A stretch of 64,000 bases of DNA, taken from positions 5,831 to 69,830 of the IMG/VR virus record IMGVR_UViG_3300036985_004421; one strand, given 5' to 3'. Source of the stretch: a virus. Positions within the stretch are counted from its first letter, which is position 1. Every line of letters begins with the position of its first letter. Below are positions 1-38,200 of the stretch, piece by piece. Made by a program: the position numbers and the translations under genes. Under the pieces are notes generated by a model, which made no database searches, had not been told where the DNA came from, and was given only the letters and a program-made list of their open reading frames with translations.

Positions 1-186
1 AGTGCCGACCTTATGAGGGGGCACAGGAATGAGCAGGTGAGGGTATTCTAAAGAATCAAAGTAGTGGTGCATTTCGGTACGAAAGAACTCGTAGTCGAAT
101 TGTGAACCATCTTTGAAGTTCAATAGCATACGCCTGATGTGATTAGGCTTAGAGCTAAAAGCGGTATGTAGGCTATCTATGTGCAT
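1..186 (-). CDS. hypothetical protein, partial (runs off the window edge)
   Basis: ATG at 186 just after the stop of 189..791; frame open to position 1 (MHIDSLHTAF...). Confidence 0.6.
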   Translation of the reverse strand, partial: MHIDSLHTAFSSKPNHIRRMLLNFKDGSQFDYEFFRTEMHHYFDSLEYPHLLIPVPPHKVGT

Positions 187-188
187 GT

Positions 189-791
189 TTAGAATGGTAA
201 GTCGTCCTCGGTGGATGGTATATAGCCTTTGTAATCAGAAGCCAAAACAGAATCAGCACAGTTGGGTTCAAAAACATCCAATGGCTTCAAGGCATACATG
301 AGTTTGAATACCTCTTGTTGAGAAGGTTCTAATCGGTGTACTAAGTCGAAGAGCACATGGCCTTGATTAAGCTTGGAAAGACTGCGTTGGTACTCGTAAC
401 GGTGTTTCAGGGCAAGATTATCAGCTTCACGTTCGTATTTACAGCGAGTGATGTAAAGGTCGTTTACTTGCGTTTGTAAGGATTCAATGTGAGCTTTAGA
501 GCACAGAGCGTGGTAGTTAATGAATAAGGATAGCGCATTAGCCTTATTGTCGATGAACTTAAATTCATGCACGTCAAGTTTGGCAAAGCGAATAGCTTTA
601 CGGTATTCAGTCGGTGCCATTGACCATACAATCATGTGTTCTTCGCGAATGACGTAAATATCAGTATCAGGAAGTAAGCCAAGCAGCTTGTCGTCTTTGC
701 TGTATGTGTCTTTAGAGGCACGTAAAACAGCTTGTAATTCATCAGTAACGCCTGACAATACAATAGTTGGTATGAAAATATCCGTACTCAT
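189..791 (-). CDS. hypothetical phage protein with acidic DDLPF tail
   Basis: 200-aa ORF; C-terminal EDDLPF resembles an SSB-type interaction tail. Confidence 0.7.
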   Translation of the reverse strand: MSTDIFIPTIVLSGVTDELQAVLRASKDTYSKDDKLLGLLPDTDIYVIREEHMIVWSMAPTEYRKAIRFAKLDVHEFKFIDNKANALSLFINYHALCSKAHIESLQTQVNDLYITRCKYEREADNLALKHRYEYQRSLSKLNQGHVLFDLVHRLEPSQQEVFKLMYALKPLDVFEPNCADSVLASDYKGYIPSTEDDLPF

Positions 792-799
792 AATACTTT

Positions 800-845
800 G
801 CAGCGTTGTGAACCCGTTAGGGCAAGGCCATTACGCTGCGGCCTT
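800..845 (-). ncRNA. putative H-type pseudoknot RNA element upstream of the 189..791 start codon
   Basis: RNA: AAGGCC/GGCCUU stem; loop GCAGCGU pairs with downstream ACGCUGC; intervening CCC-UAAC-GGG hairpin. Confidence 0.55.
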
Positions 846-866
846 TGGTTGTTAAGGTGATAGTGA

Positions 867-1226
867 TTAACGTAAACCGTAATCGCATATGAGTACAGTA
901 CCGCGCTCACGTGCCATACGCTCCTCGTATTCTTGAACAAATTGTTCAGAGAGTTGAACTAGCTGTACGGTCACGAAATTGCATGGTATGTGCTCAATTA
1001 CATGAGTTACGATGCCAGCTTTAATGAGAGCTTGGAGTATGCCCTCGTTTTCGGAGTAGTCCTTGATGATGGCGCGGTCTATTGGAACGAATCTATCAAT
1101 GACAACGGTGGCAGTCATAAAGGGCTCGCCTGTTTCCTCTTCGTAAAGAGTGATGTCTGTCAAGTGCCTGTTGGTATCACGGTACATGACCGCGATACAA
1201 TCTGTGTTAAAGAAATTGATTTTCAT
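867..1226 (-). CDS. DUF4313-like hypothetical protein
   Basis: AIIKDYSENEGILQALIKAGI motif; probable start MKINFF at 1226. Confidence 0.6.
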   Translation of the reverse strand: MKINFFNTDCIAVMYRDTNRHLTDITLYEEETGEPFMTATVVIDRFVPIDRAIIKDYSENEGILQALIKAGIVTHVIEHIPCNFVTVQLVQLSEQFVQEYEERMARERGTVLICDYGLR

Positions 1227-1300
1227 TGTAGTTACCTGATTCCCATCCTTGGTGGGTGATACTTGGCCATGCACAGGCACATGGTTGCGGTGAAATAGAA

Positions 1301-1567
1301 TTATTTGTGGTTAGGAAAAAGAACCATGAGGGTGTTCCAACATTCAATTTGGTAAGCATTATCATATCGAATTTGCCAATCCTCGTAGTCGTAATAGATG
1401 CCACAGTAAAGTGAGTCTAGTTCCTGTAATATCATCTCGTTTGATAGACCTCGTGAAATAAGGTCGTCAAATGTGAGGTCACCGAATGTGGTTGTCCAGA
1501 TATGTATGGGCGGTGGTACATCGGTGATGGTAAGCTTTGTGCGGAAACGCTTGTGTAGTGATGCCAT
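1301..1567 (-). CDS. hypothetical protein
   Basis: ORF; probable ATG at 1567 preceded by TCACTATC. Confidence 0.55.
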   Translation of the reverse strand: MASLHKRFRTKLTITDVPPPIHIWTTTFGDLTFDDLISRGLSNEMILQELDSLYCGIYYDYEDWQIRYDNAYQIECWNTLMVLFPNHK

Positions 1568-1580
1568 GATAGTGACTGGA

Positions 1581-2006
1581 TTAGAAAGTGGAATCGTGTA
1601 AATGGTCAACGCGTTTTATGTATTGTTTGCTGAAATCCTCAAAGTCTTTACGGCATTCAGCCATTTTGTCTTCAAGGCGTTTACGCATAGCGTTGTTGGT
1701 CAAAATAATGTTGATGTAGTATTCTTCGCTTTTCCAAACAGGGTTAGTTTGGAGAGAAGGGCGAGATATGCCCACGCAAAAAGTATCACGAGCTTCGAGA
1801 GATTTAGGATTTATGCAAGCAGCATCAATAACATGTTGTCTGTGGAACCGTTGTATGCGTTCTATTTCGAAGTTACCGTTGGAGTAGTGGCGGAATAGGT
1901 AGACAGTGCCGTTATACAATACAACATGGAGAAAAACATCGTAGTTAGTGCCAGTGACAGAAGAGTGGTACTGACATAGAAGAGTTAATGAATGTGAAGT
2001 TGTCAT
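1581..2006 (-). CDS. hypothetical protein
   Basis: 141-aa ORF in a tightly packed - strand operon. Confidence 0.6.
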   Translation of the reverse strand: MTTSHSLTLLCQYHSSVTGTNYDVFLHVVLYNGTVYLFRHYSNGNFEIERIQRFHRQHVIDAACINPKSLEARDTFCVGISRPSLQTNPVWKSEEYYINIILTNNAMRKRLEDKMAECRKDFEDFSKQYIKRVDHLHDSTF

Positions 2007-2020
2007 TCGTTACGTTGTTG

Positions 2021-2133
2021 CTCTGAAACCTACATTGTAGTAGGAACGCCAGCATCTAAGTTTTTGGTTAGCGGCAAAATTGCCTTGTTCCCATGCACAT
2101 ATCGCTATGTGTTACACTCTCAGAGTCATGGGA
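2021..2133 (-). ncRNA. putative structured intergenic RNA (three-way junction or pseudoknot)
   Basis: UCCCAUG/CAUGGGA enclosing CACAUA-GCGA-UAUGUG; further hairpins GGCA/UGCC and CCUAC/GUAGG; CUCUGA can pair with distal UCAGAG. Confidence 0.45.
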
Positions 2134-2142
2134 TTTATTATA

Positions 2143-2550
2143 CTATCTACAAAGTAGGCGGTCTAAATCTTCATCATTAGGTATGAGTTTGGTAAAAGCC
2201 CGAACAGCAAATTCCCATGCAAATACAGTGGGATAGGTTAGGTGCTGATTGGTTGGTGCTATTTTGTGTGAAATAGCAATGATGCGATATGCAGCAGCAT
2301 CAGCATCTTTACCTTCAATCTCAACGCCAATCATAAGTTGTGCAATTTGATTGCAGTATTGTTTTTCAACATCTGACAAGCAATTTTCGTTGATGGCATA
2401 GTTAGCGTATGCTTCATCGTATGAATGAGCGTGTAGTTGTGATAAATTAGGTACTTGTTGCATTGTAATGGGTATTAGGTACGAGGAATGATAGTGAGGT
2501 TCCAACACTACATTGGATTGCTCACTGGTGGCTACTGTCACAGCAGTCAT
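2143..2550 (-). CDS. hypothetical protein
   Basis: 135-aa ORF with ATG start. Confidence 0.6.
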   Translation of the reverse strand: MTAVTVATSEQSNVVLEPHYHSSYLIPITMQQVPNLSQLHAHSYDEAYANYAINENCLSDVEKQYCNQIAQLMIGVEIEGKDADAAAYRIIAISHKIAPTNQHLTYPTVFAWEFAVRAFTKLIPNDEDLDRLLCR

Positions 2551-2590
2551 AGCTCCCTATGCTTTGTTTCCGTAGCGTAGGGATAAGGCG

Positions 2591-2914
2591 TTAGCCTTGG
2601 TATTTATCAGTTTTAATCAGCAAAGAAATGAGCCAAGTTTTACTATCGTGTTGATACACGAAGTATGTCTTGGTTTCCCATAGTTTGGACACTTCAAGTA
2701 CAGGGATTGCGTACTTGTTAGAAATGTGATTCGGAGTGAACACATTACCAACGGTATTAGCAGCCTGTTTGAAAAAGTCAGACAAAGTTTCGGGTGACAC
2801 ATAACCTTCGAATACAAACTCCTTGTTGTCCATAGGATATACAAGGCTTGATTCGATACTGGTGAGTCCGAAGCGTACTTGGTAAGCATCGAACAATTGA
2901 GTGAGGTTTCTCAT
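2591..2914 (-). CDS. hypothetical protein
   Basis: 107-aa ORF; ATGA overlap with the upstream gene. Confidence 0.6.
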   Translation of the reverse strand: MRNLTQLFDAYQVRFGLTSIESSLVYPMDNKEFVFEGYVSPETLSDFFKQAANTVGNVFTPNHISNKYAIPVLEVSKLWETKTYFVYQHDSKTWLISLLIKTDKYQG

Positions 2915-3123
2915 ATCGCTGTGCTATTAAAGAGGATTCGGTCAAGTCTTGCGAATCTTTCCTCTTTGGTTAGTAATTCCGTGTTGATCACACGGTCAAT
3001 GCTCAAACCTGCTGCTTTAGCATCAGCCATAATAGCTGCATGCGTTCTGGGCTTTGCAGGTGGAGTTGTGAGTGTTCTCCCGTAAAGGATAACTGGCTCA
3101 GATATTCTTTGGCGCTTTGCCAT
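2911..3123 (-). CDS. hypothetical protein
   Basis: 70-aa ORF immediately downstream of the hammerhead ribozyme. Confidence 0.55.
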   Translation of the reverse strand: MAKRQRISEPVILYGRTLTTPPAKPRTHAAIMADAKAAGLSIDRVINTELLTKEERFARLDRILFNSTAI

Positions 3124-3152
3124 CTGAATTGGTATTTGGTTAAATGGTGTCT

Positions 3153-3219
3153 GCCATCATCAGTAATCAGGAAACACCCTGACTAGACCCACAATGCTTC
3201 ACAGCAGGTGGATTTCGGC
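3153..3219 (-). ncRNA. hammerhead ribozyme, type II topology
   Basis: RNA: GCC-GAAA-UCCAC...GUGGG-UC|UAGUCAGG...CCUGAUUA-CUGAUGA-U-GGC; complete CUGAUGA/GAAA/GUC core with all three stems; predicted cut between 3186 and 3185. Confidence 0.9.
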
Positions 3220-3221
3220 TA

Positions 3222-3647
3222 TTAGTAAGAGTTTAATTCATCAGCGTATTCAGCATGCCCTATGCAAATAGGACAGTAGTAGAACCCATTGGTATGTGTG
3301 TACAAAGGGGTATGGTTACCATTGCGGTTGCAAGCATAGCAGCGTAGCGGTGCTGGCGTTGTGGGTATGTGGATATACCCTACCACTCTTGGCATAGGCT
3401 TTGGCATAACAACAATAGGCTTTGGTTTAGCCACAGGTGTGTCAAGCTGCCCATCTGCAATGTAGAAAGCAGATACAGCTGCTACGAAAAGAGCAAGGAA
3501 ACAGGCAATTCCTAAGCATACTGTTGATTGCACCATAGGTATTAGCTGGAACGAACCAAGTGTTGTTATCCAAACTAAGGTTAGTGAGAATGTTGGTGCG
3601 ATAGCTGCGGCTATCACGTTGCGAACAAAGAAATATGTTGCTTTCAT
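3222..3647 (-). CDS. membrane protein with C-terminal Zn-finger-like domain
   Basis: two hydrophobic segments, Pro/Lys linker, CYAC...CPIC. Confidence 0.6.
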   Translation of the reverse strand: MKATYFFVRNVIAAAIAPTFSLTLVWITTLGSFQLIPMVQSTVCLGIACFLALFVAAVSAFYIADGQLDTPVAKPKPIVVMPKPMPRVVGYIHIPTTPAPLRCYACNRNGNHTPLYTHTNGFYYCPICIGHAEYADELNSY

Positions 3648-3735
3648 GCGTACTGTTGACGGTGTTTAGGCAGTTGTCGGCTGAGAGTGATAGTGAGTGT
3701 GCTATGACTACGCACTATCGGGTTATGGTCTGAAT

Positions 3736-3805
3736 CACGGACTTGGAACCGTGTCACTCTGAATAGAGTGAGGCCTTACAAGGGATATTCTCCCCTGTCC
3801 TCGGT
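3736..3805 (-). ncRNA. twister-like ribozyme candidate, circularly permuted, copy 1
   Basis: ACC-GAGGA-[CAGGGGA/UCCCUUG]-UAA-GGCC-[UCACUCU/AGAGUGA]-[CACGG-UUCCAAGU-CCGUG]; resembles twister L1 (UAA/GAG) and L4 loop. Confidence 0.65.
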
Positions 3806-3807
3806 CG

Positions 3808-4122
3808 TTACCAAGGGTGTTTACCCGAGGTAACAATAGACTGTACGGATTCGGCTGGCACATAGAATGTGTCACCAATCCATTTACCTTCAAGCATGCC
3901 AACGCACTTTTGCATTGCGGCTACACGTAGCTCGTGCGAAGGAAGCAAGTAGAAATGTTCGTACTGTTTCCACGTGCCATCCAACAAGCCTTGCTTCATA
4001 TCATCTGTGTCATAGAAGTCAGGACCAGTGATAGCAGTCGAATCAGGCGTTGTCATATCCAAGTACCACTTCTTTGGGTCAAGGACTACTTCGCTTGCTT
4101 TGATATTTGGTTCGTAATTCAC
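3808..4122 (-). CDS. hypothetical protein
   Basis: 104-aa ORF, GTG start preceded by TCACTATC; lies between the two twister-like motifs. Confidence 0.6.
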   Translation of the reverse strand: MNYEPNIKASEVVLDPKKWYLDMTTPDSTAITGPDFYDTDDMKQGLLDGTWKQYEHFYLLPSHELRVAAMQKCVGMLEGKWIGDTFYVPAESVQSIVTSGKHPW

Positions 4123-4203
4123 GATAGTGATTGCCTATTCTCGGCTCTTAAGGACTTCAAAGAGTTGCATACTGAGTAGTGAAAGCCTCACCATCGGTTG
4201 ATT

Positions 4204-4271
4204 ACTGGACTTGGAACCAGTCTGCAAATGCAGGGCCTTACAACCCACCACTAAGGTGGGCTGTCCTCGGT
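4204..4271 (-). ncRNA. twister-like ribozyme candidate, circularly permuted, copy 2
   Basis: ACC-GAGGA-[CAGCCCACC/GGUGGGUUG]-UAA-GGCC-[CUGC/GCAG]-[ACUGG-UUCCAAGU-CCAGU]; stems differ from copy 1 but pairing is kept. Confidence 0.65.
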
Positions 4272-4280
4272 ATGAAGCAA

Positions 4281-4652
4281 TTAGCAATAGACAGAGCACA
4301 AAGCTTCGTCCATTAACCTTAGCTGCTCGGCAATGTTGGGTGTGCTGGCCTTGATAGCCTCACACTTTTCGCGGAATAACTCTGCTGCTGTTTTGCGCTC
4401 TGGTATCATGCCATCTTGGTAGGCAGCTAATACCTCGTTGCTCAAAGCAAGAGCACGATTCTTACGCTGTATCAACGTGTATAACCTGCGTGCTGCTTGT
4501 ATCGTGTAATTAGCACTAGCTGTGCTGTTCGGCACACCTGACTTATACGACAATACCTTCACTTGGCTGTAGCGTGGCGTGAACTTGTAAACAAGGGTTT
4601 GACCATCTAATGCTACTACTCTCAACTCATGGGTAACTGATGCGTTTGCCAT
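4281..4652 (-). CDS. hypothetical protein (first gene of the leftward early operon)
   Basis: 123-aa ORF with ATG start. Confidence 0.6.
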   Translation of the reverse strand: MANASVTHELRVVALDGQTLVYKFTPRYSQVKVLSYKSGVPNSTASANYTIQAARRLYTLIQRKNRALALSNEVLAAYQDGMIPERKTAAELFREKCEAIKASTPNIAEQLRLMDEALCSVYC

Positions 4653-4779
4653 GTCTTACTGGGATGCCGTAAAAACTCTTGCGAGAGGTCAAGCATCGAA
4701 ACCTTTTGGGTAAATAGCACAGCCAGACGGTTACTCCACTACAGAGCATTACGCACAAACCATGCAATTAAATTTGTTT

Positions 4780-5160
4780 TATCGAAAGGAAAGCTTTAGC
4801 TTTCGCACACGCGGATATTTACCACATAAGTAATGATACAACCAACATCAGATTGGTGAATCACCACTATGCAAGACATTAACAGCATCAGCATTATCCC
4901 CGATTGGTGATAGTGACCCATCGGAAACCCGCGCTATACCTAGGAATAATACAATCAAATGTAATATACCTAGATACAATTGATAGAATAATAACTACTA
5001 ATATCTATCTATATATATATATGTGCGCGAGAAAAATAGTTTGAGTTGGATGTGTAAACTATATGCTGACTATATATGCAAAAAGATGGGATGGGGGGGA
5101 TAGACGAGAAGTGCAAAGGGTACGGGGGTTAAGGGGATGTGTCCCTCCACAGGTGATACT
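4780..5160. other. non-coding AT-rich then G-rich region; candidate genome terminus, packaging site or origin
   Basis: TATACCTAG x2 (4935, 4965), GATTGGTGA x2 (4851, 4902), (TA)n tract near 5010-5022, G-runs at 5088-5136, no ORF. Confidence 0.4.
4956..4963 (-). promoter_or_regulatory. possible Bacteroidota -7 promoter element (TACATTTG) for the leftward early operon
   Basis: matches TAnnTTTG upstream of 4652. Confidence 0.35.
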
Positions 5161-5202
5161 CTTATGCCTACGGATGATGGTATGGTATCCTTTGTAATGA
5201 TG

Positions 5203-5526
5203 TCACTCTAATAGGAAATCTTTGAACTCTTCATCAGATATGAGTCCATGTTTGTGCTTGATGAACATTTCTTTGATGCGATGTTCTTCTGCGATTGCAT
5301 TTGTTTCTCTTTGCTTGGTACGTTCGTTGAGGTCGTGGATGTAGTCATTGAGTTGAAGTTCTCTATTGGACCAATCAACGCATTGGGATGGTATGTCGAA
5401 GTGTTTGTAGTGTACCGGTGTAATTTTAGGTTCTGCTTGTTTATGGAAGCGGAGAGCCTTTAGGAATTTAATCATATTCTTTAGCTTCTTGGTATGCATC
5501 GAATGGGGATAGTCCTCTGGTTTCAT
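5203..5526 (-). CDS. hypothetical protein
   Basis: 107-aa ORF, overlapping-codon junction. Confidence 0.6.
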   Translation of the reverse strand: MKPEDYPHSMHTKKLKNMIKFLKALRFHKQAEPKITPVHYKHFDIPSQCVDWSNRELQLNDYIHDLNERTKQRETNAIAEEHRIKEMFIKHKHGLISDEEFKDFLLE

Positions 5527-5900
5527 TTGGATAGTTTTACTTTACTCATGTCCAGTAGGACAAATGAAGCTGATACGGATGCAGGTGTGCTTGGCTCGTC
5601 AAAGAGTGGGTGAGGTACTAAGGAGATTTCCATTTCATACTCTTCTGTATATCGTCCTGCGGCTTTGAGTCTTTTGATGTATTCTGCGTTTGTTTTTTTG
5701 CGATTGGCAGATTCCTCTTGGATGGCTTTATCGGTTAGGGCGCATGGGAATATGAATGACAGCCAGCCGTTGGAGTTTTTGAAAGCTTCGATGGAGTTGG
5801 TGTGAGTTTCGTCACCTTGGGAATTTCCACAGAATGCGTATTCCGGTAAGAGGTCATCGACCCCACGTTGTCTTTTGATTGTGTAGGTTTTCATTTGCAT
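5523..5900 (-). CDS. hypothetical protein
   Basis: 125-aa ORF. Confidence 0.6.
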   Translation of the reverse strand: MQMKTYTIKRQRGVDDLLPEYAFCGNSQGDETHTNSIEAFKNSNGWLSFIFPCALTDKAIQEESANRKKTNAEYIKRLKAAGRYTEEYEMEISLVPHPLFDEPSTPASVSASFVLLDMSKVKLSK

Positions 5901-6319
5901 TGTTTTGTGAGTGCATCTTCCAAGTTCCTACATGTTTTGCAGTTTGGGTTATTGCACAGGTTAAATTCTACGGACGATTGAGTAACGATACCTTTCTCTA
6001 TGCAGCCAGTTAGCATGACCATAAGTTTGGGTGCATCGGGGCTGGCCATGATGTCTTGGAGGAATGACATCAGCTTGTCTACGGTTAGTTCACCAATGGC
6101 TGAACCGTATGGTGCTTCTTTATCCTCAATCTGAGGAATGATGCCTTTCCCTAAAAATGGATTCTCTATGGGATCAGGCATTGGGCCGAACATGTGTAGG
6201 AACTGTTCTTTTTCTTTTTCGAGAAAGGCTTGCTCTTGCTCTAAATTGTAAATGTGCTGCTTGAGCGTCATTCCATCGGGAACGTCATTAAGGTCGATTA
6301 CCTTTTTCTTATCTACCAT
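5891..6319 (-). CDS. hypothetical protein with C-terminal Cys cluster
   Basis: 142-aa ORF; CNNPNCKTC. Confidence 0.6.
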   Translation of the reverse strand: MVDKKKVIDLNDVPDGMTLKQHIYNLEQEQAFLEKEKEQFLHMFGPMPDPIENPFLGKGIIPQIEDKEAPYGSAIGELTVDKLMSFLQDIMASPDAPKLMVMLTGCIEKGIVTQSSVEFNLCNNPNCKTCRNLEDALTKQCK

Positions 6320-6324
6320 GATTT

Positions 6325-6804
6325 CTATTTGTTTCTGCTTCTATACTTTAGTTTGTATTTACGGTAGTGCTTATTCCAGATACGTTCAAGTTCTGCTTCG
6401 CGCTCTTCGCGTTGCTTACGTCTGTCAATCTCGCGTTGAATGAACTCCGTCCAGACCTTCTCATATTCCACTTCACCTTGGATTGGCACATATGGCACGA
6501 CTTTGTTTGACTCGTTGACTAGCTGCTGCATTAGCCCAACACCGGGTTCTATGTCCTTGCCAGCTTCAATCCATTGGAATGTATCTGAGTAAGCTTCATC
6601 ATTGAATGCTTTGTGTACTTCATCAGGAATAGAATCGTACTTGTGTTCCCATGGAAAGTACATGGGATTGGCCTTAACGATGTTATTCATTTTTTGGTAC
6701 ATGGCAGAGCCAACGTGTGTGCACATAGCTTCTACTGACCACACCCATATAACGTCTGCAGGTACGTCACTCAGGTCAAATTTGATTGGATATTCTGTTT
6801 TCAT
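6325..6804 (-). CDS. hypothetical protein
   Basis: 159-aa ORF. Confidence 0.65.
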   Translation of the reverse strand: MKTEYPIKFDLSDVPADVIWVWSVEAMCTHVGSAMYQKMNNIVKANPMYFPWEHKYDSIPDEVHKAFNDEAYSDTFQWIEAGKDIEPGVGLMQQLVNESNKVVPYVPIQGEVEYEKVWTEFIQREIDRRKQREEREAELERIWNKHYRKYKLKYRSRNK

Positions 6805-7001
6805 GGCTTTTCTAGTTTAACGATGGCTGTATTGATTTCAGCAGCTAAGTACAAATACTTTTCTTGGTCTGATAGGACGTACACCCCTCTTCGTCCTTCC
6901 ATTGATGAACGCACTCGCACCTCAATGTTTGTGTGCCCTTTTTCTTTGAGAGCTTTAATCAGCTTGTGATTTGGGTGAGTAGATTCTTTGAGGACTTTCA
7001 T
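6801..7001 (-). CDS. hypothetical protein
   Basis: probable start MKVLKES at 7001. Confidence 0.5.
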   Translation of the reverse strand: MKVLKESTHPNHKLIKALKEKGHTNIEVRVRSSMEGRRGVYVLSDQEKYLYLAAEINTAIVKLEKP

Positions 7002-7055
7002 AGCTATTTGGTTTTGTGAATGCGGAGCAGCCAATCTGACCGCTCCGCTATCGGG

Positions 7056-7334
7056 TTAAATAATTCTGTTTAACAATTCAACTACTAAATCAAGTCTGTC
7101 CAGAAGGTACCTGAAATCGTCCTGTTGTGATTCAAACTGAACCAGTGCTCCATCGCGCTTCTCTTCACGGTCAGGTCGTGCACCTTGCTTGATGCTATTA
7201 GAACCTTCGAGGACTAGTATTTTTGACTCTAAGCTTCCTACGTTCTCCTGTAATCGCATCAACAATTCAGCGTTCATCTTGTGGATCCTTTCAAGTTTTG
7301 GAACTTCCTGTGATAATAATTTCGATCCTTCCAT
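7056..7334 (-). CDS. hypothetical coiled-coil protein
   Basis: 92-aa helical ORF. Confidence 0.6.
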   Translation of the reverse strand: MEGSKLLSQEVPKLERIHKMNAELLMRLQENVGSLESKILVLEGSNSIKQGARPDREEKRDGALVQFESQQDDFRYLLDRLDLVVELLNRII

Positions 7335-7684
7335 TTGTTTACGGGTTCATTAAGCCGCCCAAGGCTGTTAATTGTGTATGTGTATAAGCATCCCTTCCCT
7401 GTCATGTTAGACAGAGTTGCCAGAAGCTTGATTCGAAAGCCGATGGCGCGCCACATGTATCTCTTGACCTCCCTGTTGGGGCTTGACTAACTTCTCTTAA
7501 ACTATCCTTTCGGTAGCATGACGTGACCAAGTTGACGGATGCTAAGTCAGAGCTTGGATTTGTGAGAAAGCGTGAGAACTGTAACTGGTAACTACTCCGA
7601 GGTGGTTTGGACATCTATCGTTTCAGTCCAGGGGTCAGAGTTTTAGAGCCACCCCTATTGTGTCATAGAAACTGGTGGAAATGA

Positions 7685-7790
7685 GAATCCCCCTTAGAAG
7701 CTACTACTCTTCTTCGGGGGATTTCTTTTCGCTTGGGTCTTGTGAACCCGTTGCTAAAGGTCTTTGGTGAGCAGGTAGTAGTTGACTGCG
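7685..7790 (-). promoter_or_regulatory. leader attenuator-like RNA: terminator-type hairpin whose loop is complementary to the 5' end
   Basis: hairpin 7685-7724 (GAATCCCCC/GGGGGATTT on +); its loop GUAGUAG can pair with 5' CUACUAC (7775-7781). Confidence 0.55.
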
Positions 7791-7795
7791 TGGTG

Positions 7796-7803
7796 CAAAT
7801 GTA
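7796..7803 (-). promoter_or_regulatory. Bacteroidota -7 promoter element TACATTTG (leftward)
   Basis: TAnnTTTG followed by CA at the divergence point. Confidence 0.65.
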
Positions 7804-7877
7804 ATAATCTTTTTGTTCGTGAATTGCTATCCGCTAAAAAGTCACTTCGCGTGTAATTCTGTTCGTGAATGGTGGGC

Positions 7878-7885
7878 TATGTTTG
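7878..7885 (+). promoter_or_regulatory. Bacteroidota -7 promoter element TATGTTTG (rightward)
   Basis: TAnnTTTG followed by CG, about 25 nt upstream of ATG 7909. Confidence 0.65.
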
Positions 7886-7908
7886 CGGCCTAACCAATTC
7901 AGAACTAA

Positions 7909-8508
7909 ATGGAAGTAGTTAAGGGTGCGGATAAACTGAAAGAGGACTCCGAAAGAAAAATGTTTGAGGACAGCCAGCCTGTGCTAAGTCCATCAGAGGT
8001 TGAAGCAAAGCAATCTCACGAAGCAGCGAAGCTTGCTATGGAGAAGTACAGGGCTAACCTGATTGAAGTAGCCAAGGAGTACGGCCAGCTTTATGTCATA
8101 GCTAGCAAGTATGGCGAGGAATCCTTGCTAGAGCATGCCTATGGTGTATGGCAGATTCTCCTGTACGTAGAATGTGTTACTGGTGAAATGACAGCCAAGA
8201 CTCAAGCCGAAGCGCATGAGCACATTGGAAAGTATATCTCCGACAAGTTTGTGGCGCTATGGCCCGTTGACCCAAAAACTAAAAAGCCGATAGCTTCTTT
8301 CATCAATGCGGTACGCGGTGACTTGATGGCTTACGAAATGCGGTCAGGCAAAGCCACTGTAACGCTTATGGAAGTGTACCATAATAGCCCAAAGGTGTTT
8401 ACTCAGGATGTGGTATTTGCTATTAGCCTTGCTAATCGCTTGACCATAACTGCTGGCAGATTGCACAGAGAGCGAATGTTAGAGATTAACCCTGAAATTC
8501 AAAACTGA
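7909..8508 (+). CDS. hypothetical protein
   Basis: 199-aa ORF after the promoter. Confidence 0.7.
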   Translation: MEVVKGADKLKEDSERKMFEDSQPVLSPSEVEAKQSHEAAKLAMEKYRANLIEVAKEYGQLYVIASKYGEESLLEHAYGVWQILLYVECVTGEMTAKTQAEAHEHIGKYISDKFVALWPVDPKTKKPIASFINAVRGDLMAYEMRSGKATVTLMEVYHNSPKVFTQDVVFAISLANRLTITAGRLHRERMLEINPEIQN

Positions 8509-32244: not shown

Positions 32245-35200
32245 ATGGATGAAGAATTGTTGCAACAGTTACTTGACGAGCAAGCTGCTCAAGAAGGACA
32301 AGTACAAACTCAAACGGCAACCGCACCTGTGCAAGCCGAAGTTCCCACCCAACAAGTAGGAACTCAAATTAGCCCTATGAGAAACCCATTCATTACGCAA
32401 CAGCGTAGGGATAGGGTTCCAACCAATAGCTGGATGGATGTAGTGATAGATGATCCAGTATCATCTGTGAAAGATTCCCCTGATGCCAAACATGTAGAAA
32501 CGTTGAGTGATGAAGAAATCGCTCAGCGTTTGGAGTTTTTCGCCAACCCATCTAGCAATCCACAATGGATGAAAGAAATGGAGCAAGACTCTGCAGGGTT
32601 TTTCAATGCGCGTAATGCCACCATTGAAGAAGCTGCAAAGCGTGAGAAAGAAATTAGTGGCAAGGAAAAAGACCCTAATGACTTCTGGAAGGAATACAAT
32701 GGCCAGTTTGATGATGGCTCTGTTGGTAAAAAAGAACAGGACAAACGCAAGCTTGATACCTACTCTGCCAAAATGAAAGAGCAAGGTTCCTCTGATGAAG
32801 AAGTCGGAAACTTGGAATCTATTTGGAATGAATTGAAGAAAGCGAAAACAGGCGTGGAGTTAATACCACACGCTTTGGTCAATGCTGTAACTGGTGTGCA
32901 AGAAACCATACACGACATGTCTATGGATGTAGTGTCGATAATGTATGGTTTAACTCCAAAAGAAACATTGACGTTCAAGGCTGTGATGATGGACGGTGCT
33001 ACGGCAAAGTTCATGGCTACAGGAGAGCGCAAAGATTTGAAAGCAGACATATATGACCGTTTCAGAGCAGGCTTGACGGAATATATGAATCAAGAAAATG
33101 ATACTGTAGGAGCATTACCTACTAAGACATTCAATAAATCATGGGGTGAGGGTGATTATGTTGGGTCTTTAGTTGCAGGTTTTGGTGGTACAATGGGCCT
33201 TGTTCCTTCGGCTGTTGTGGGTGTAGGTACAATGGGATATGGTATGGTGCCATACATGGCAGGTATGGCGGAATCTGATAAGGCTGTCAATTCTCGTTTA
33301 GCTACTGGAAAAGAATTAGCTGACGCTTATCGCGATGGCGATAATGACCAACTAATGTCCTGGACGACCAGCTCTATTGTTGGTTATATTGAAAAACTAG
33401 GGTTAAAAAAGTTAGGCAAAGGAATCGAAGAAGCATTTAATGGTAAAGCATTAAAGGATAAAGCAGTTCGATTCTTAAGCGACTCTGGCATTCAAGGTGC
33501 AACTGAAACATTCCAAGGTGGTATAGAGCACGTTGGTACTGCGTACAATAAAATCAAATTAGCCAATCCCGAAATGAGTGATGCCGAAGCTATGGCCAAG
33601 GCTGTCAAGGAAGGTGTATTATGGTATGGTTCTGGTGAAGCGTTCGAAACATTTGCTACTACAGCTCTAGGTGTGTCATACATGACGGGTGCTTCTCATG
33701 CTGCAGGTAAAGTATGGAGAAAGGCTACTGAAACTCAAGAGCAAAAGCTGGCCGCTAAACTGGATGACCCAAATGTTTCAGAAGCTAGTAAGACTATTCT
33801 CCGTGACAAGTTCAATCAGTTAAGGCAACAAGCATCTGCTGAGTACCAACAAGAGCGTACAATCTTCAAATCGTTATCAGAAGAAGAGCAGTCAGAGTTA
33901 GGTTCTTTGGCTAGAAAAGTAAAAGATGCGGGTCTAACATTAGCTGTACTTGACCCAGAGGTTGACCAAGATGCTATTCAAATTGCAGAACAAACCAAAG
34001 GAGAGTTATTGGCTCGTATTGATGCAATTAAAGCGCCTGTAAAAAAACAACTGTTAGAGAAGGATAAGGAGAAGCTTCGTAGTATGGGAGTTTATACTGT
34101 ACCAATGGTTGATGGTGTTGTAAATCTTAATGCTAAAACGCAGCTTCATACAGAAGAGGAACAGAAGATTGCTGCAAAAGCTATTGACGAGATTATACAG
34201 ACGGGGGTTAAAGAGAAGTTGCCTATACCTCAAATTGCAGCAAACATAGAGGCCTCTGGTCACATGGTAGGCGATGGGATATTGTTCACTACTCAAGAGT
34301 ATGTGGAAATGGCTACTACTAAAGCATTGCCATCACTGATAGAAGCATTTGGAGATAAGACCAGTGCTAAGAATGTAGCAGTAGCAACTACAGAACTGCC
34401 TATTGAAGTGTCAACTGAAACTGCACCAGTAGAAGAAGTTGCTTCAACTACAGCTGTAACTGAACCAATTTCAAATGAAGCTGTAATTGCTGATATCGAA
34501 CAAAGGAGAAGTGAGGAATTGGAATCAAATGGTTTGAATCGATTACTACCACTGAATATAGATGATGATCCTGTTTTGCAAAAAAAAATTGACCTTCAAA
34601 AAGAAATTGAAACTAAGTATGCTACTGAACTTTCTCAAGTTAAAGTACAAGCAGTAAAAACTCCAAGTACTAATGCACTAGTACCGCCCACAACATCCAA
34701 AGCTGATGAAGTAATGGCTGCTGCTAAAGCTGCTATCGAAGGAGAGCGTGAAGTAGATGATTTACCCTTTGGCGTGAGTTCCGAAGCAAATAAAGAAAAT
34801 GAGGCTGTGGCTACTGCCAGTGAGGAAATACAGGCTGAATCCGAATCTGAGTTAAATAAAGAAGAGGAACCCGTTGCTGTAAAAAAAGCACCTGCTAAAA
34901 AGATTTCCAAACCTAAAGCACCTGCCAAACCAAAAGCCACCAAGAAACCAAAGGCCACTACTAAAAAGCCTGTAGCCAAGGAAAAGGAAAGTGCCCCAAC
35001 TGTAACAAAGGAAGTTGCACCAGTAGCCGAATTACCAACCGACCCCGAAGCACGTAAAGAAGCAATTAAAGCGCGGAAAGCGGAGCTTATGAAGGGTATA
35101 GCAGAGCGATGGACAAGCAACAAATCTGGCATTGCTTCCTTGCCTGAGAACCAATCAGATGAAATGCGTCAGGACGTTGATGCTATTATTGAATTGGCCA

Positions 35201-38200
35201 AGTTGAGCATAGAGGAAATGGGCCAGTCACTCCAAGAGTTCGTGGACGAAATGGTAGTTGCCTTTGGAAAGAAGCACCCAAACATTACACAGCTCGCTAC
35301 TGATGTTTACAATAGTGTAAGTCTAGGTGCTGATACAGCTACCAATGAAGTAAACGTATGGGTGAATGAATTTTTGAATGCTGAACCTACTATTGAAAGT
35401 AGTCAAGCAATGCCTGTAGCAGAAAATGAAGAGCAACGGAAATTACGTAACTCTATTCTAGCTGTAGTCGATAAAGCAATGCTTGCCGGTGGTGAATGGC
35501 TGCGTGAAAAAGACTTTAAGACTATCGGAGTAAACAGCCGTATGCGCAACTTTTTCAATAACCCTCATGCGTATATCATGATGAATGCGATTGATGGTTA
35601 TTCAAGGAATTTGAAAGGCTACTCATTCATGAAAACTCTTCTGACCAAAGACGAAGCAATGAACATCATGCAGAATTTCGTTGAGGAAATTGACAAGATG
35701 GAAGAGCGTACTGGATTTAAGCTAGATAGTAAACGCATTAAAGCTCCATCGCACAATGATGTCAATGCAATAGTAGAAGGGTTCTTTAAGCAATTCCAAG
35801 ATGCATGGATAAATAAAGACCCTGAGAGTTATGCCATCTTTGACCAGTATGCACAATTAGTTAGGGGTATTCCATCCATTAAGCCATCATTCCAAATGGC
35901 AGGACCAAATGAATGGTCAGACATAGGATTGAAGAGATTGGTTACAGGCCTATTCACAGAGTCAGGATTGATGCTAGATCCAGAGGACATTACTCAAACC
36001 TTACAAAGCATAGCTGCTAGTGTGCCGAGAGAAGGTGGTAATAAAGAATGGATCAAGCTCATGCGCTCTATAGCCAACGGTAAAAAAAGCCTAGAGCAAG
36101 ATATAGCTGAACGTATGCTTAATCGTATTTCTGCACTGGTTGACCTTAATGCACAGAATGTAAACGATAGCGGAGAGCTTAAAGCTATCATCAACACATT
36201 GGCTAATATGGGTACTGACCAAGTAGTGGCCAGTGTCATAGGCACAGACGGAGTAGTACGCAGAGAAGTAATGAATGTATCTATGGCGCCAAAGGAGATT
36301 GCTTCTAATGTGCTAGGTATGATTGAGAAGTACATGAGCCAATCACGGGCTATAAGCGCATTCAATTCGCTCATTACTGAATACAAAAATATCAGTATGG
36401 AAATTACAGCACAGATTAAAGCTGGTCGTCCATTAACCGTAGCGCAAGACGTTGCTTATTCACGAAGATTGCTTGAACTGTACCATCAGCGTATCATCCA
36501 ACCTTACGGTGGTAAGATGGATATTAAGGGTGACTATGTAGGCGAAGTGATTAAGTCTATACAAGAAAAAGAATCAACCACACCTACGTGGATTCGCGTA
36601 GCTGGCATGCTTCAAATTTTGGATAATGCACAAGCGAAACAGAGAATCAATAGCAACAATACAATTGATGTACTGGAAAGCACTCGCCCGTATTATGAGT
36701 TGCTAGGCAAGGTAATGGTAGAAGCAGAGCCTAATGCTACATCATGGAGAAATGCAGATGGCGAAAACGTCACAGCACAAGGCCCTAGAACCCACGTAGA
36801 CTTGGTATCTGATAGCATGAACATCCCTACGGAAAAGGGTGGTACTACACCTGCAGAGAAGATGCTCAAAGTGGGCTTCTTTCAAAACAATCCAATACTC
36901 AAGTTTTGGAATAAGACTAAAGCTGTAGGTCGCCAAAAATGGAACGAAGGAAGTTTCAAGAAGGAGTTTGGTATGTCCATAGATAAAATGCGATCGGATG
37001 GAATACTTGCGGATAACCTAGTTGCATTCTTTGAAGGAACTAAAGACGGATATCAGCACATGTATATGCTGAATGGTGACCGTGACACGCGCTATATGTT
37101 CAATGCACCACTAATGAATGTGGACCAACTTGCGGAGCAATATGGCATAATCAACGGAAAATTCGATTCTAACTCACCCATAGTAAAGGCATTTGAAAAG
37201 CGTGCTGCAGATGCCGTGGCTCTAGGTGTAAGTAAAAAAGACGGATTGCTATTGAATGAGGAAGGGCTAAAGAGATTGAATGCAACATACTACATTCAAT
37301 TCAAAATAGCAGATGGCAAATTTGTGGCTGATGGCGATTTGACTTTGAAGCATAGGTTAAATGCGACCAATACGTTGCTAAAAAAATTCGAAGAGTTGAA
37401 TAAACAATGGGTGCAATATGATGGTATGTCATTGCGCTATGTGGATGCTGTTCAAGTTATGGCACGTAAAAATCCAGAGCTGGCTGAATTATTCAATCAA
37501 AACGTAGATGCCAATACACGTATGCGAAGATTAGCTGCGTTGTATGAGGGTAATAATACCATCAATGAGTTGGCGCTAACTGATGTGTTTGTAGGTGACC
37601 CAATCTATTTGCGCCCAGGGGCAAAAGCTTTGAAGGATGCAAAGAGTCAATCTACACGAGGTATGAACGTAGCATCTACAGTCGGTCCAGTTTATGTAGT
37701 TACGTTGAATGAATTACCTGCTACTGATTCTGGCGGATTCATGAACTCGTATATGAGTGAGCGTGCAAGCAATGGTGTAATCAATGGACTTGGGCCTAAT
37801 ATGAAGATAGGGTTCTTTGGAGTAGAACGCCATGGTAAAAATGCTGGACATGGCATGTCATTAAAAATGGCTACCATGAATGCGGTGCGAGGTAAAGATG
37901 GTAAGAACAAAATGGAATACGACCACGGAACTTCTGACCAGTACGCAAAGATGGCAGAGCTGATGGATAAACTCGAAGCTCACATTATGGCCACTACTAA
38001 AAGTGATGTACGTCCGAATATATTGATTATTCCACCTTCATCACAAAAGGTTTCCTCGCTTAGATTAAAGCCAATCAATTTGAATGAGCTTAGTTCTTTG
38101 AGTTTCAATGAAAGCAACTTCAAAAAGATTACACCGGAAACAGCTACGGTGAACTTTAACATCAACCATGATATGACTGATGGCGCTTATGCTAAACGCC

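What the first reader, a model, noticed from the sequence alone, without database searches (positions are those of the whole stretch)
3153..3219. Type II hammerhead ribozyme 2 nt after a stop codon
Seen in sequence: a full catalytic core with an 8-bp stem I, a 3-bp open stem II with one extra U after CUGAUGA, and a stem III carrying a nested UGCU/AGCA hairpin. Cleavage would leave about 62 nt of 5' leader on the 2911..3123 mRNA.
Basis: partly seen in the sequence, partly recalled or inferred. Interest (0 to 1): 0.7.

Follow-up and report, generated by a model that had tools for sequence, protein, structure and literature searches.

The report
Hammerhead ribozyme between phage genes
A genuine type II hammerhead self-cleaving RNA sits between two small genes of an uncultured crAss-like phage, next to two twister ribozymes; this is an ordinary new example of a known kind whose biological role is still unproven.

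Summary
Rfam's Hammerhead_II model (RF02276) matches window 3145-3220 on the minus strand at 41.7 bits (cut-off 37, E 4.2e-5), the only match over a curated cut-off in the 64 kb. It missed a 6-bp pseudoknot between loop I (3177-3172) and the tail after stem II (3152-3147), the hallmark of type II hammerheads.

The genome is a 69.8-kb crAss-like phage. Its one close relative keeps the ribozyme with one change in 3220-3146, and that change turns a G.U pair into A-U.

The 'extra U' after CUGAUGA is common in phage contigs: at least 117 stretches carry it.

The next two upstream spacers hold Twister-P5 variants. They score below the cut-off but show strong covariation.

Most likely the three ribozymes cut a multi-gene transcript into single-gene mRNAs with hairpins at both ends. 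Cleavage itself is untested, and no RNA run was listed.

Fifty more distant capsid relatives lack the hammerhead.

Verdict: new member of a known kind, modest interest.

The parts
3145..3220 (-). Type II hammerhead ribozyme (full Rfam RF02276 match)
   Evidence: 41.7 bits against a cut-off of 37, E 4.2e-5, model positions 1-66 of 66
3217..3219 (-). Stem II, 3' strand in hammerhead numbering (GCC), pairs with 3153-3155
   Evidence: read; invariant in 4 distinct sequences
3213..3216 (-). Core G12 A13 A14 plus A15.1 (GAAA)
   Evidence: sequence; Rfam alignment
3187..3213 (-). Stem III hairpin: 6 bp, then a nested UGCU/AGCA stem with a GUGA loop. After cleavage it becomes the 3' end of the upstream mRNA
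   Evidence: MFE fold (-11.2 kcal/mol, 4 of 200 shuffles fold as well). U3212.G3188 becomes U-A in the relative
3185..3186 (-). Predicted scissile bond, between C3186 (H17) and U3185 (N1.1)
   Evidence: position fixed by the core and the Rfam alignment; cleavage not tested
3164..3185 (-). Stem I hairpin (8 bp, 3185-3178 with 3171-3164) with loop I 3177-3172
   Evidence: 4 of 8 pairs change on both sides between two lineages, 100% of cells paired
3156..3163 (-). Core CUGAUGA (3163-3157) plus the extra U3156 before G10.1
   Evidence: sequence; the same arrangement in at least 117 viral stretches
3153..3155 (-). Stem II, 5' strand in hammerhead numbering (GGC)
   Evidence: sequence
3147..3152 (-). 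3' tail AGACAC, pseudoknot partner of loop I GUGUUU (3177-3172)
   Evidence: 6 contiguous pairs; 217 of 5000 shuffled tails reach this. One pair changes on both sides and one on one side in the second lineage
3222..3647 (-). Upstream ORF, 141 aa, no family match; its stop codon ends 1 nt before the Rfam match
   Evidence: 81% identical in the relative
2911..3123 (-). Downstream ORF, 70 aa, no family match; would receive a 62-nt leader starting at U3185
   Evidence: 75% identical in the relative
3737..3805 (-). Twister-P5 variant (Tw2), predicted cut 3778|3777; starts 2 nt after the stop of ORF 3808..4122
   Evidence: 29.8 bits, below the cut-off of 37.6; covariation
4205..4271 (-). Twister-P5 variant (Tw1), predicted cut 4240|4239; starts 9 nt after the stop of ORF 4281..4652
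   Evidence: 32.7 bits, below the cut-off of 37.6; covariation; the same variant passes the cut-off in L128 at 40.1 bits
3808..4122 (-). ORF between the two twisters (104 aa); replaced by an unrelated 84-aa ORF in the relative
   Evidence: BLASTP E 1.6

Best explanation
Window 3220-3146 (minus strand) encodes a functional type II hammerhead ribozyme in a block of short same-strand genes of unknown function in a crAss-like phage.

Shown:
- the complete core;
- three helices with type II topology;
- a 6-bp pseudoknot between loop I and the 3' tail;
- a score above the Rfam cut-off;
- near-invariance in the one close relative.

Inferred mechanism:
- Once RNA polymerase has transcribed through stem II and the tail, the RNA folds. 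The 2'-OH of C3186 attacks its 3' phosphate.
- The upstream mRNA (ORF 3222..3647) then keeps its stop codon and ends in the stem III hairpin with a 2',3'-cyclic phosphate.
- The downstream mRNA (ORF 2911..3123 and beyond) starts with a 5'-OH U3185 that is paired inside the stem I hairpin. About 21 unstructured A/U-rich nucleotides follow before the AUG.
- Two twister variants sit in the two spacers upstream. Together the three ribozymes would cut a multi-gene transcript into single-gene units capped by hairpins at both ends. That would uncouple the stability and translation of each accessory gene from its neighbours.
For: Membership and structure:
- RF02276 scores 41.7 bits against a cut-off of 37.
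- The core and helices can be read directly.
- The pseudoknot has 6 pairs.
- Type II hammerheads typically have a pseudoknot of 4 or more pairs between loop I and the nucleotides just after stem II, and this contact is needed for fast cleavage (PMC3088659 passages).

Selection:
- The relative scores 42.8 bits.
- It has 1 difference in 3220-3146, G3188 to A, which turns U.G into U-A.
- The surrounding block 2927-3805 is only 78.7% identical.

Covariation with a second lineage (L086, L131, L132):
- 97.7% of cells are paired, against at most 51.2% when the partners are slid.
- 5 pairs change on both sides.
- 0 of 500 shuffles reach the observed covariation score.

The class as a whole:
- Of 107 distinct viral hammerheads with the same stem II and extra U, 101 have a pseudoknot of 4 or more pairs. 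Shuffled tails give a mean of 19%.
- The 5' end lies within -6 to +9 nt of a same-strand stop codon in 84 of 112, against 118 of 2237 random positions.
- A same-strand start follows within 0-39 nt in 61 of 109, against 275 of 2168.

Extra U: a U between A9 and G10.1 raised the cleavage rate 3-4 fold in the CChMVd hammerhead (PMC3705267 passage citing De la Pena and Flores 2001).

Hairpin-capped ends are predicted for all three cuts.

Context:
- Two Twister-P5 variants lie in the next two spacers.
- No terminator-like site was found on the minus strand in 2000-8200.
- Processing of polycistronic transcripts has been proposed for such ribozymes (PMC6765202 passage).
- Multi-hammerhead arrays cleaved in vitro and in E. 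coli (PMC3088659).
Against: - No cleavage assay and no RNA data exist for this sequence.
- Conservation rests on a single close relative, so it is shallow.
- 0 of 50 records of more distant capsid relatives (about 40-44% identity) have a Hammerhead_II match over the cut-off. Only 3 of these records are at least 90% complete. The element is therefore not needed by the clade.
- Folding energy is not exceptional: z -1.79, and 12 of 200 shuffles fold as well.
- The pseudoknot alone is only moderately unlikely (217 of 5000).
- A single polycistronic transcript is assumed, not shown. Promoters of this phage type are unknown, and an enriched octamer lies between each twister and the next start codon. 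If it is a promoter, many transcripts would start downstream of the twisters.
- The benefit of hairpin-capped 5'-OH ends rests on recalled knowledge of bacterial mRNA decay, not on a test here.
Confidence: 0.75

Rival explanations
1. The ribozymes mark the junctions of exchangeable accessory-gene cassettes. On this reading their main significance is at the DNA or module level: conserved junction sequences allow genes to be swapped between phages while each incoming gene gets a standard, insulated RNA context. This does not exclude the processing role.
For: - Between the window and its relative, homology blocks begin exactly at the 5' ends of both twisters (4271 and 3805).
- The ORF between the twisters is unrelated in the two phages (E 1.6).
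- The ORF upstream of Tw1 shares only its first 67 residues.
- The capsid protein is 97% identical.
- The same twister variant occurs in an unrelated 41.8-kb phage.
Against: - Only one genome pair was compared.
- The hammerhead itself lies inside a continuous homology block (2927-3805) and is not at a junction.
- Another gene difference, ORF 2591..2914 absent in the relative, has no ribozyme at its edge.
- The identical stretches shared by the two twisters are only about 10-12 nt.
Confidence: 0.12
2. Genes bracketed by two ribozymes are released with a 5'-OH and a 2',3'-cyclic phosphate and are then joined by an RtcB-type ligase into circular mRNAs.
For: - Predicted fragments are 4239-3778 and 3777-3186, each holding one ORF (cut sites derived).
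- The end chemistry fits RtcB substrates (recalled).
Against: - No complementarity between the fragment ends was seen that would bring them together.
- No ligase was noted among the window proteins scanned.
- No RNA data are available.
- Translation of a circular mRNA that has a stop codon gains nothing obvious.
Confidence: 0.06
3. The hammerhead is a translation-coupled switch. It starts 2 nt after the stop codon, so a terminating ribosome covers stem II, GAAA and the 5' half of stem III. Cleavage would then depend on how heavily the upstream ORF is translated.
For: The 5' end lies within -6 to +9 nt of a same-strand stop in 84 of 112 class members, against 118 of 2237 random positions. In the window the gap is 1-2 nt.
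Against: - Tight packing in phage genomes explains the adjacency equally well.
- Ribosome occupancy at a stop codon is transient.
- Nothing here measures coupling.
Confidence: 0.08
4. A chance match or decayed relic that no longer cleaves.
For: - Folding energy is unexceptional.
- There is an insertion relative to the Rfam consensus between CUGAUGA and stem II.
- More distant relatives lack the element.
Against: - The score is above the curated cut-off, E 4.2e-5.
- All core positions are intact.
- The pseudoknot is present.
- There is 1 pair-preserving change in 75 nt, against about 21% divergence around it.
- The insertion is shared by at least 117 viral stretches.
Confidence: 0.04

Closest known systems
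Type II hammerhead ribozymes of bacteria, prophages and metagenomes (Rfam RF02276; Perreault et al. 2011, PMC3088659)
   Same: - Core, topology (stems I and III closed, stem II open and short).
- Watson-Crick pseudoknot between loop I and the nucleotides right after stem II.
- Location between small same-strand genes of unknown function in phage DNA, near other self-cleaving ribozymes.
   Different: - Stem II has 3 bp preceded by an extra U. The Rfam consensus has no such U, and the aligner treats 'UG' as an insertion. This subclass is nevertheless abundant in viral contigs.
- The host genome is a divergent crAss-like phage. My two literature searches listed no paper whose title or abstract reports hammerheads in crAss-like phages.
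Multi-ribozyme arrays flanking genes in prophages (three hammerheads around ardA in Agrobacterium tumefaciens; PMC3088659)
   Same: Several self-cleaving ribozymes in successive intergenic spacers of one strand, each bracketing one or two small genes. Those arrays were shown to cleave in vitro and in E. coli.
   Different: Here the array is mixed, with two Twister-P5 variants followed by one hammerhead, and nothing has been tested experimentally.
Twister ribozymes, type P5 (Rfam RF02684; Roth et al. 2014 as reviewed in PMC5408937)
   Same: - P1, P2 and P4 helices, a U-A cleavage site and the L4 CCAAG core.
- The T1 pseudoknot.
- Commonly found within a few kilobases of hammerheads.
   Different: - The window copies score 32.7 and 29.8 bits, below the cut-off of 37.6.
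- P2 has only 2 bp, and there is an inserted P3 hairpin.
- In T1, a G-C pair is replaced by A-U.
- In T2, one of the two pairs is a C.U mismatch.
CChMVd (+) hammerhead with an extra residue between A9 and G10.1 (De la Pena and Flores 2001, as summarised in PMC3705267)
   Same: One extra nucleotide at the same place in the core. U at that place gave the highest rate.
   Different: It is a type III viroid hammerhead with loop-loop contacts, and the natural residue there is A, not U.

Membership tests
Hammerhead ribozyme, type II (RF02276) | Score at or above the curated Rfam gathering cut-off | tested here: met
   41.7 bits against 37, full-length model match 1-66; 42.8 bits in the relative
Hammerhead ribozyme, type II (RF02276) | Conserved core: C3 U4 G5 A6 N7 G8 A9, G12 A13 A14, A15.1-U16.1 pair, H17 not G | tested here: met
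   CUGAUGA at 3163-3157; GAA at 3216-3214; A3213-U3187; C3186. One extra U (3156) lies between A9 and G10.1
Hammerhead ribozyme, type II (RF02276) | Three helices around the core, with stems I and III closed by loops and stem II open (5' and 3' ends) | tested here: met
   Stem I 8 bp, stem III 6 bp plus 4 bp, stem II 3 bp open. 97.7% of cells paired across 4 distinct sequences
Hammerhead ribozyme, type II (RF02276) | [quoted passage not shown] | tested here: met
   3177-3172 with 3152-3147, 6 pairs; 217 of 5000 shuffled tails reach this. 101 of 107 class members have 4 or more pairs
Hammerhead ribozyme, type II (RF02276) | Site-specific self-cleavage giving 2',3'-cyclic phosphate and 5'-OH ends | not testable with these tools
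Twister ribozyme, type P5 (RF02684), for the two neighbouring elements | Score at or above the curated Rfam gathering cut-off | tested here: not met
   32.7 and 29.8 bits against 37.6. The same core variant in L128 scores 40.1 bits
Twister ribozyme, type P5 (RF02684), for the two neighbouring elements | P1, P2 and P4 helices supported by covariation | tested here: met
   5 sequences: 98.2% of cells paired; 10 of 23 pairs change on both sides; 0 of 500 shuffles reach the score; slid controls at most 53.7% paired. P2 has only 2 invariant pairs
Twister ribozyme, type P5 (RF02684), for the two neighbouring elements | Double pseudoknot T1 (L1 with L4) and T2 (L2 with L4), and the U-A cleavage site | tested here: inconclusive
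   T1 is possible, with an A-U pair in place of the consensus G-C. T2 has one C-G pair and one C.U mismatch. All these columns are invariant in the 5 sequences. The mapping of T1 and T2 comes from passages of PMC5408937. UAA is present at the expected place

The most novel reading that the evidence does not exclude
In this phage lineage, self-cleaving ribozymes act as standard junctions of a plug-and-play accessory-gene array. Each small gene is flanked by a conserved ribozyme. At the RNA level the ribozyme insulates the gene, giving defined hairpin-capped ends whatever the neighbour. At the DNA level it supplies the conserved boundary at which genes are replaced between phages. The clearest case is the unrelated ORFs found between identical twisters in two phages whose capsid proteins are 97% identical.
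Probability: 0.12. Interest if true: 0.7.

Novelty: new member of a known kind. Interest (0 to 1): 0.33.

Why it matters
The biological role of the thousands of hammerhead and twister ribozymes in bacteria and phages is still open (PMC6155905 and PMC5408937, passages).

This locus is a compact natural test case. Three ribozymes of two classes lie in three successive spacers of a short-gene block in a crAss-like phage, and a sister genome has the same ribozymes bracketing different genes.

If cleavage and its effect on the flanking genes were measured, the result would bear on how phages set the expression of fast-evolving accessory genes, which may include anti-defence genes.

The class-wide observation is a usable rule for annotation and for designing such tests: these hammerheads start at the upstream stop codon in 84 of 112 cases and end shortly before the next start codon.

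On its own, the hammerhead is an expected member of a well-described family.

Tried and rejected
- RNA evidence: the look-up of sequencing runs listed no RNA holder. It gave 3 DNA rows, one holding 0.90 of the sampled words.
- More relatives of the flanking genes: the viral scans found one relative only. The metagenome scan with the ORF141 alignment found none. ORF70 has 2 homologues in the protein collection.
- A capsid relative at 85% identity on a 72.9-kb contig (P0004) could not be examined for the same reason.
- blastn of window 1-8000 against deposited phages gave no match.
- Flanking ORFs: 0 of 10 have a Pfam or PHROGs match.
- Other ribozymes: no further Rfam match at E <= 1 in the first 6.5 kb of the record. 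There was none besides the three in window 2400-8000, apart from weak matches I regard as noise: Plastid-psbA-1, SNORD58, engA, ST7-AS2_2, and NsiR1 elsewhere.
- Promoter and terminator scans gave fewer sites than shuffles and decide nothing.
- tblastn of 22 window ORFs against loci L010-L126 gave no hit, so those hammerheads sit in unrelated phages.
- The crystal structure paper PMC11300833 (passages) concerns a different pseudoknot form, in which the pseudoknot replaces helix II. I did not use it as a model.
- Supplementary files of PMC3088659 (alignments, Figures S1-S7) were not opened. They may show whether the extra-U subclass was already described.

Full report
**What is there**

On the minus strand, ORF 3222..3647 ends with TAA at 3224-3222. 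One nucleotide later, Rfam's Hammerhead_II model (RF02276) matches 3220-3145 over its full length. The score is 41.7 bits against a curated cut-off of 37, with E 4.2e-5 for the whole window against 4227 families. It is the only match in the window that reaches a gathering score.

- Stem II: G3219-C3153, C3218-G3154, C3217-G3155.
- GAA at 3216-3214.
- Stem III: A3213-U3187 through C3208-G3192, extended by UGCU/AGCA with a GUGA loop.
- The GUC triplet, with the scissile bond between C3186 and U3185.
- An 8-bp stem I (3185-3178 with 3171-3164).
- CUGAUGA at 3163-3157, then one extra U (3156) before stem II.
- A 62-nt leader from U3185 to the ATG at 3123.

The six loop I nucleotides, GUGUUU (3177-3172), are complementary to AGACAC (3152-3147), which directly follows stem II. 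According to Perreault et al. [quoted passage not shown] Shortening or mutating it lowers the rate 20- to more than 100-fold.

In the window, shuffled tails reach six contiguous pairs in 217 of 5000 trials. The element therefore ends near 3146, not 3153.

**Is it more than chance?**

- Folding energy alone is not persuasive: z -1.79, and 12 of 200 shuffles fold as well.
- The covariance-model score is above the cut-off.
- The window's record is a 69,830-base virus record. Its one close relative is a 70,113-base IMG/VR contig with capsid protein 97% identical and the two flanking proteins 81% and 75% identical. That relative has the hammerhead at the same place at 42.8 bits.
- Between 3220 and 3146 the two copies differ at one position, G3188 to A. 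This turns the U.G pair of stem III into U-A. The block that contains the hammerhead (2927-3805) is only 78.7% identical.
- A second lineage was found with a pattern that fixed the core and the first two pairs of stems I and III: L086, L131 and L132, with L130 cut off. It has different inner stem I pairs and a different pseudoknot that still pair.
- On the 5-row alignment (4 distinct rows), 97.7% of cells pair, against at most 51.2% when partners are slid. Five pairs change on both sides (four in stem I, one in the pseudoknot). 0 of 500 shuffles reach the covariation score. The pattern fixed the invariant columns, so only the free columns count as evidence.

**The 'extra U'**

- The Rfam alignment treats the U and the following G as an insertion.
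Of 107 distinct sequences that I could parse, 101 have a loop I/tail pseudoknot of at least four pairs. Shuffled tails give a mean of 19%, and tails swapped among members give 51%.
- This is therefore a common phage subclass, not a defect.
- An extra residue at this place is tolerated. In the CChMVd hammerhead, a U there raised the rate 3-4 fold (PMC3705267, passage citing De la Pena and Flores 2001).
- The relative's AUC triplet is unusual: 1 of 107 in my set. Early work described it as essentially absent from natural hammerheads, although catalytically good (PMC1636495, abstract and passages).

**Context**

- The window encodes a Crassvirus major capsid protein (PF23898, E 1.9e-22), a Crassvirus muzzle protein (PF25731, E 1.6e-73) and a 4138-aa ORF.
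- The nearest deposited phages are Flavobacterium phages of the FpV4 group, at only 23% capsid identity. This is a divergent, uncultured crAss-like phage. One DNA run labelled sediment metagenome holds 0.90 of the sampled words.
- The hammerhead lies in a run of short minus-strand ORFs (about 189-7334). Ten of these were scanned and none has a Pfam or PHROGs match.
- Such blocks of short unknown genes are described as typical of crAss-like genomes and suspected to be defence-related (PMC10136315, passage).

**Neighbouring ribozymes**

- The two spacers upstream on the same strand each hold a match to Twister-P5 (RF02684): 4271-4205 at 32.7 bits and 3805-3737 at 29.8 bits. Both are below the cut-off of 37.6.
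- The relative has both, at 32.8 and 32.6 bits.
- A scan for the variant's core found it in only one other place, an unrelated 41.8-kb phage. There it scores 40.1 bits, above the cut-off.
- Across the five copies, 98.2% of cells pair, 10 of 23 pairs change on both sides, and 0 of 500 shuffles reach the score.
- Using the description of T1 and T2 in PMC5408937 (passages), T1 is kept through an A-U pair in place of G-C. T2 keeps one of its two pairs.
- I regard both elements as probable twisters, but they fail the formal cut-off.
- No other ribozyme match was found in the rest of the record.

**How it most likely works**

In a type II hammerhead the cut falls between the stem III hairpin and the stem I hairpin.
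- The upstream RNA would end in the stem III hairpin (-11.2 kcal/mol) one nucleotide before its 2',3'-cyclic phosphate end, and it keeps its stop codon.
- The downstream RNA would begin with a 5'-OH U that is already paired in stem I. It keeps both pseudoknot strands.

The P5-type twisters have the same property: a P1 hairpin at the new 3' end, and P3 and P4 hairpins near the new 5' end. Hairpins and a 5'-OH should slow exonucleases and 5'-end-dependent decay. This step is inferred from recalled knowledge.

Across 118 instances of the subclass:
- The 5' end lies within -6 to +9 nt of a same-strand stop in 84 of 112, against 118 of 2237 random positions.
- A same-strand start follows within 0-39 nt of the tail in 61 of 109, against 275 of 2168.

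My ORF calling was crude (any ORF of 50 aa or more), so these counts carry noise. Even so, the class is intercistronic by design. That fits the proposal that such ribozymes process polycistronic transcripts (PMC6765202, passage) and the tested prophage arrays (PMC3088659).

**Evidence that limits the claim**

- Cleavage is untested, and no RNA run was listed.
- The single-transcript assumption is unproven.
- Among 50 records of capsid relatives at about 40-44% identity, none has a Hammerhead_II match over the cut-off. I chose these 50 as the longest of the 79 kept loci other than the known relative; 239 were found in all, and only 3 of the 50 are at least 90% complete.
- 0 of the 5 largest have a twister match.
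- The array is therefore a recent, dispensable acquisition of one sublineage.

**A side observation worth following**

- Between the window and its relative, homology resumes exactly at the 5' end of each twister (4271 and 3805).
- The ORF between the twisters is unrelated in the two phages (104 against 84 aa, E 1.6).
- The ORF upstream of Tw1 shares only its first 67 residues.
- With one genome pair this is an anecdote, but it suggests ribozyme-bounded gene cassettes.

**Verdict**

This is a real type II hammerhead, correctly read by the first stage, and a new member of a well-known kind in a familiar genomic setting. The mixed three-ribozyme array and the cassette-like gene replacement give it some added value as an experimental model.

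My two literature searches listed no paper whose title or abstract reports hammerhead or twister ribozymes in crAss-like phages. A preprint states that hatchet ribozymes are largely confined to Crassvirales (10.64898/2026.03.07.710320, passage).

Noticed in passing
window 3737-3805 and 4205-4271, minus strand: Two Twister-P5 variants lie in the two spacers upstream of the hammerhead. They score below the Rfam cut-off (29.8 and 32.7 bits against 37.6). They show strong compensatory changes among five copies, and the same core variant passes the cut-off in an unrelated phage (L128, 40.1 bits).
   Followed up: yes
window 3806-4133 and 4272-4450, against L004 2213-2435 and 2574-2842: The gene between the two twisters, and the C-terminal half of the gene before the first twister, are unrelated in the close relative. 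Homology resumes exactly at each twister's 5' end. ORF 2591..2914 is absent from the relative.
   Followed up: partly
window 859, 1568, 2490, 3689, 4123, 4909, 55804 (minus strand): The octamer TCACTATC occurs 7 times, always on the minus strand, against 2.42 expected (0 of 100 shuffles reach 7). Three copies abut a start codon, and two lie between a twister and the next start. No wider consensus was seen around it. It could be a promoter or a translation signal.
   Followed up: partly
window 4653-5202, minus strand: About 550 nt with no ORF of 60 aa or more on the gene strand. It is 82% identical to the relative as part of block 4451-5242 and has no credible Rfam match (one weak + strand hit, SNORD58, E 5.9). 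It may hold the promoter or leader of the ribozyme-containing unit.
   Followed up: no
L004 3432-3507 (the relative's hammerhead): The triplet before the cleavage site is AUC instead of GUC. This is 1 of 107 in the viral set examined, and an older viroid study described AUC as essentially absent from natural hammerheads.
   Followed up: partly
loci L010-L126 (viral contigs with the same hammerhead subclass): As a class, these hammerheads start at or overlap the stop codon of the upstream same-strand ORF (84 of 112 within -6 to +9 nt) and end 0-39 nt before the next start (61 of 109). Some contigs carry two copies a few hundred bases apart (L032, L055, L057, L078, L082, L094).
   Followed up: partly
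window 32245-44661, plus strand: A 4138-aa ORF with no Pfam match. By size and position it could be the virion RNA polymerase or a cargo protein of a crAss-like phage.
   Followed up: no
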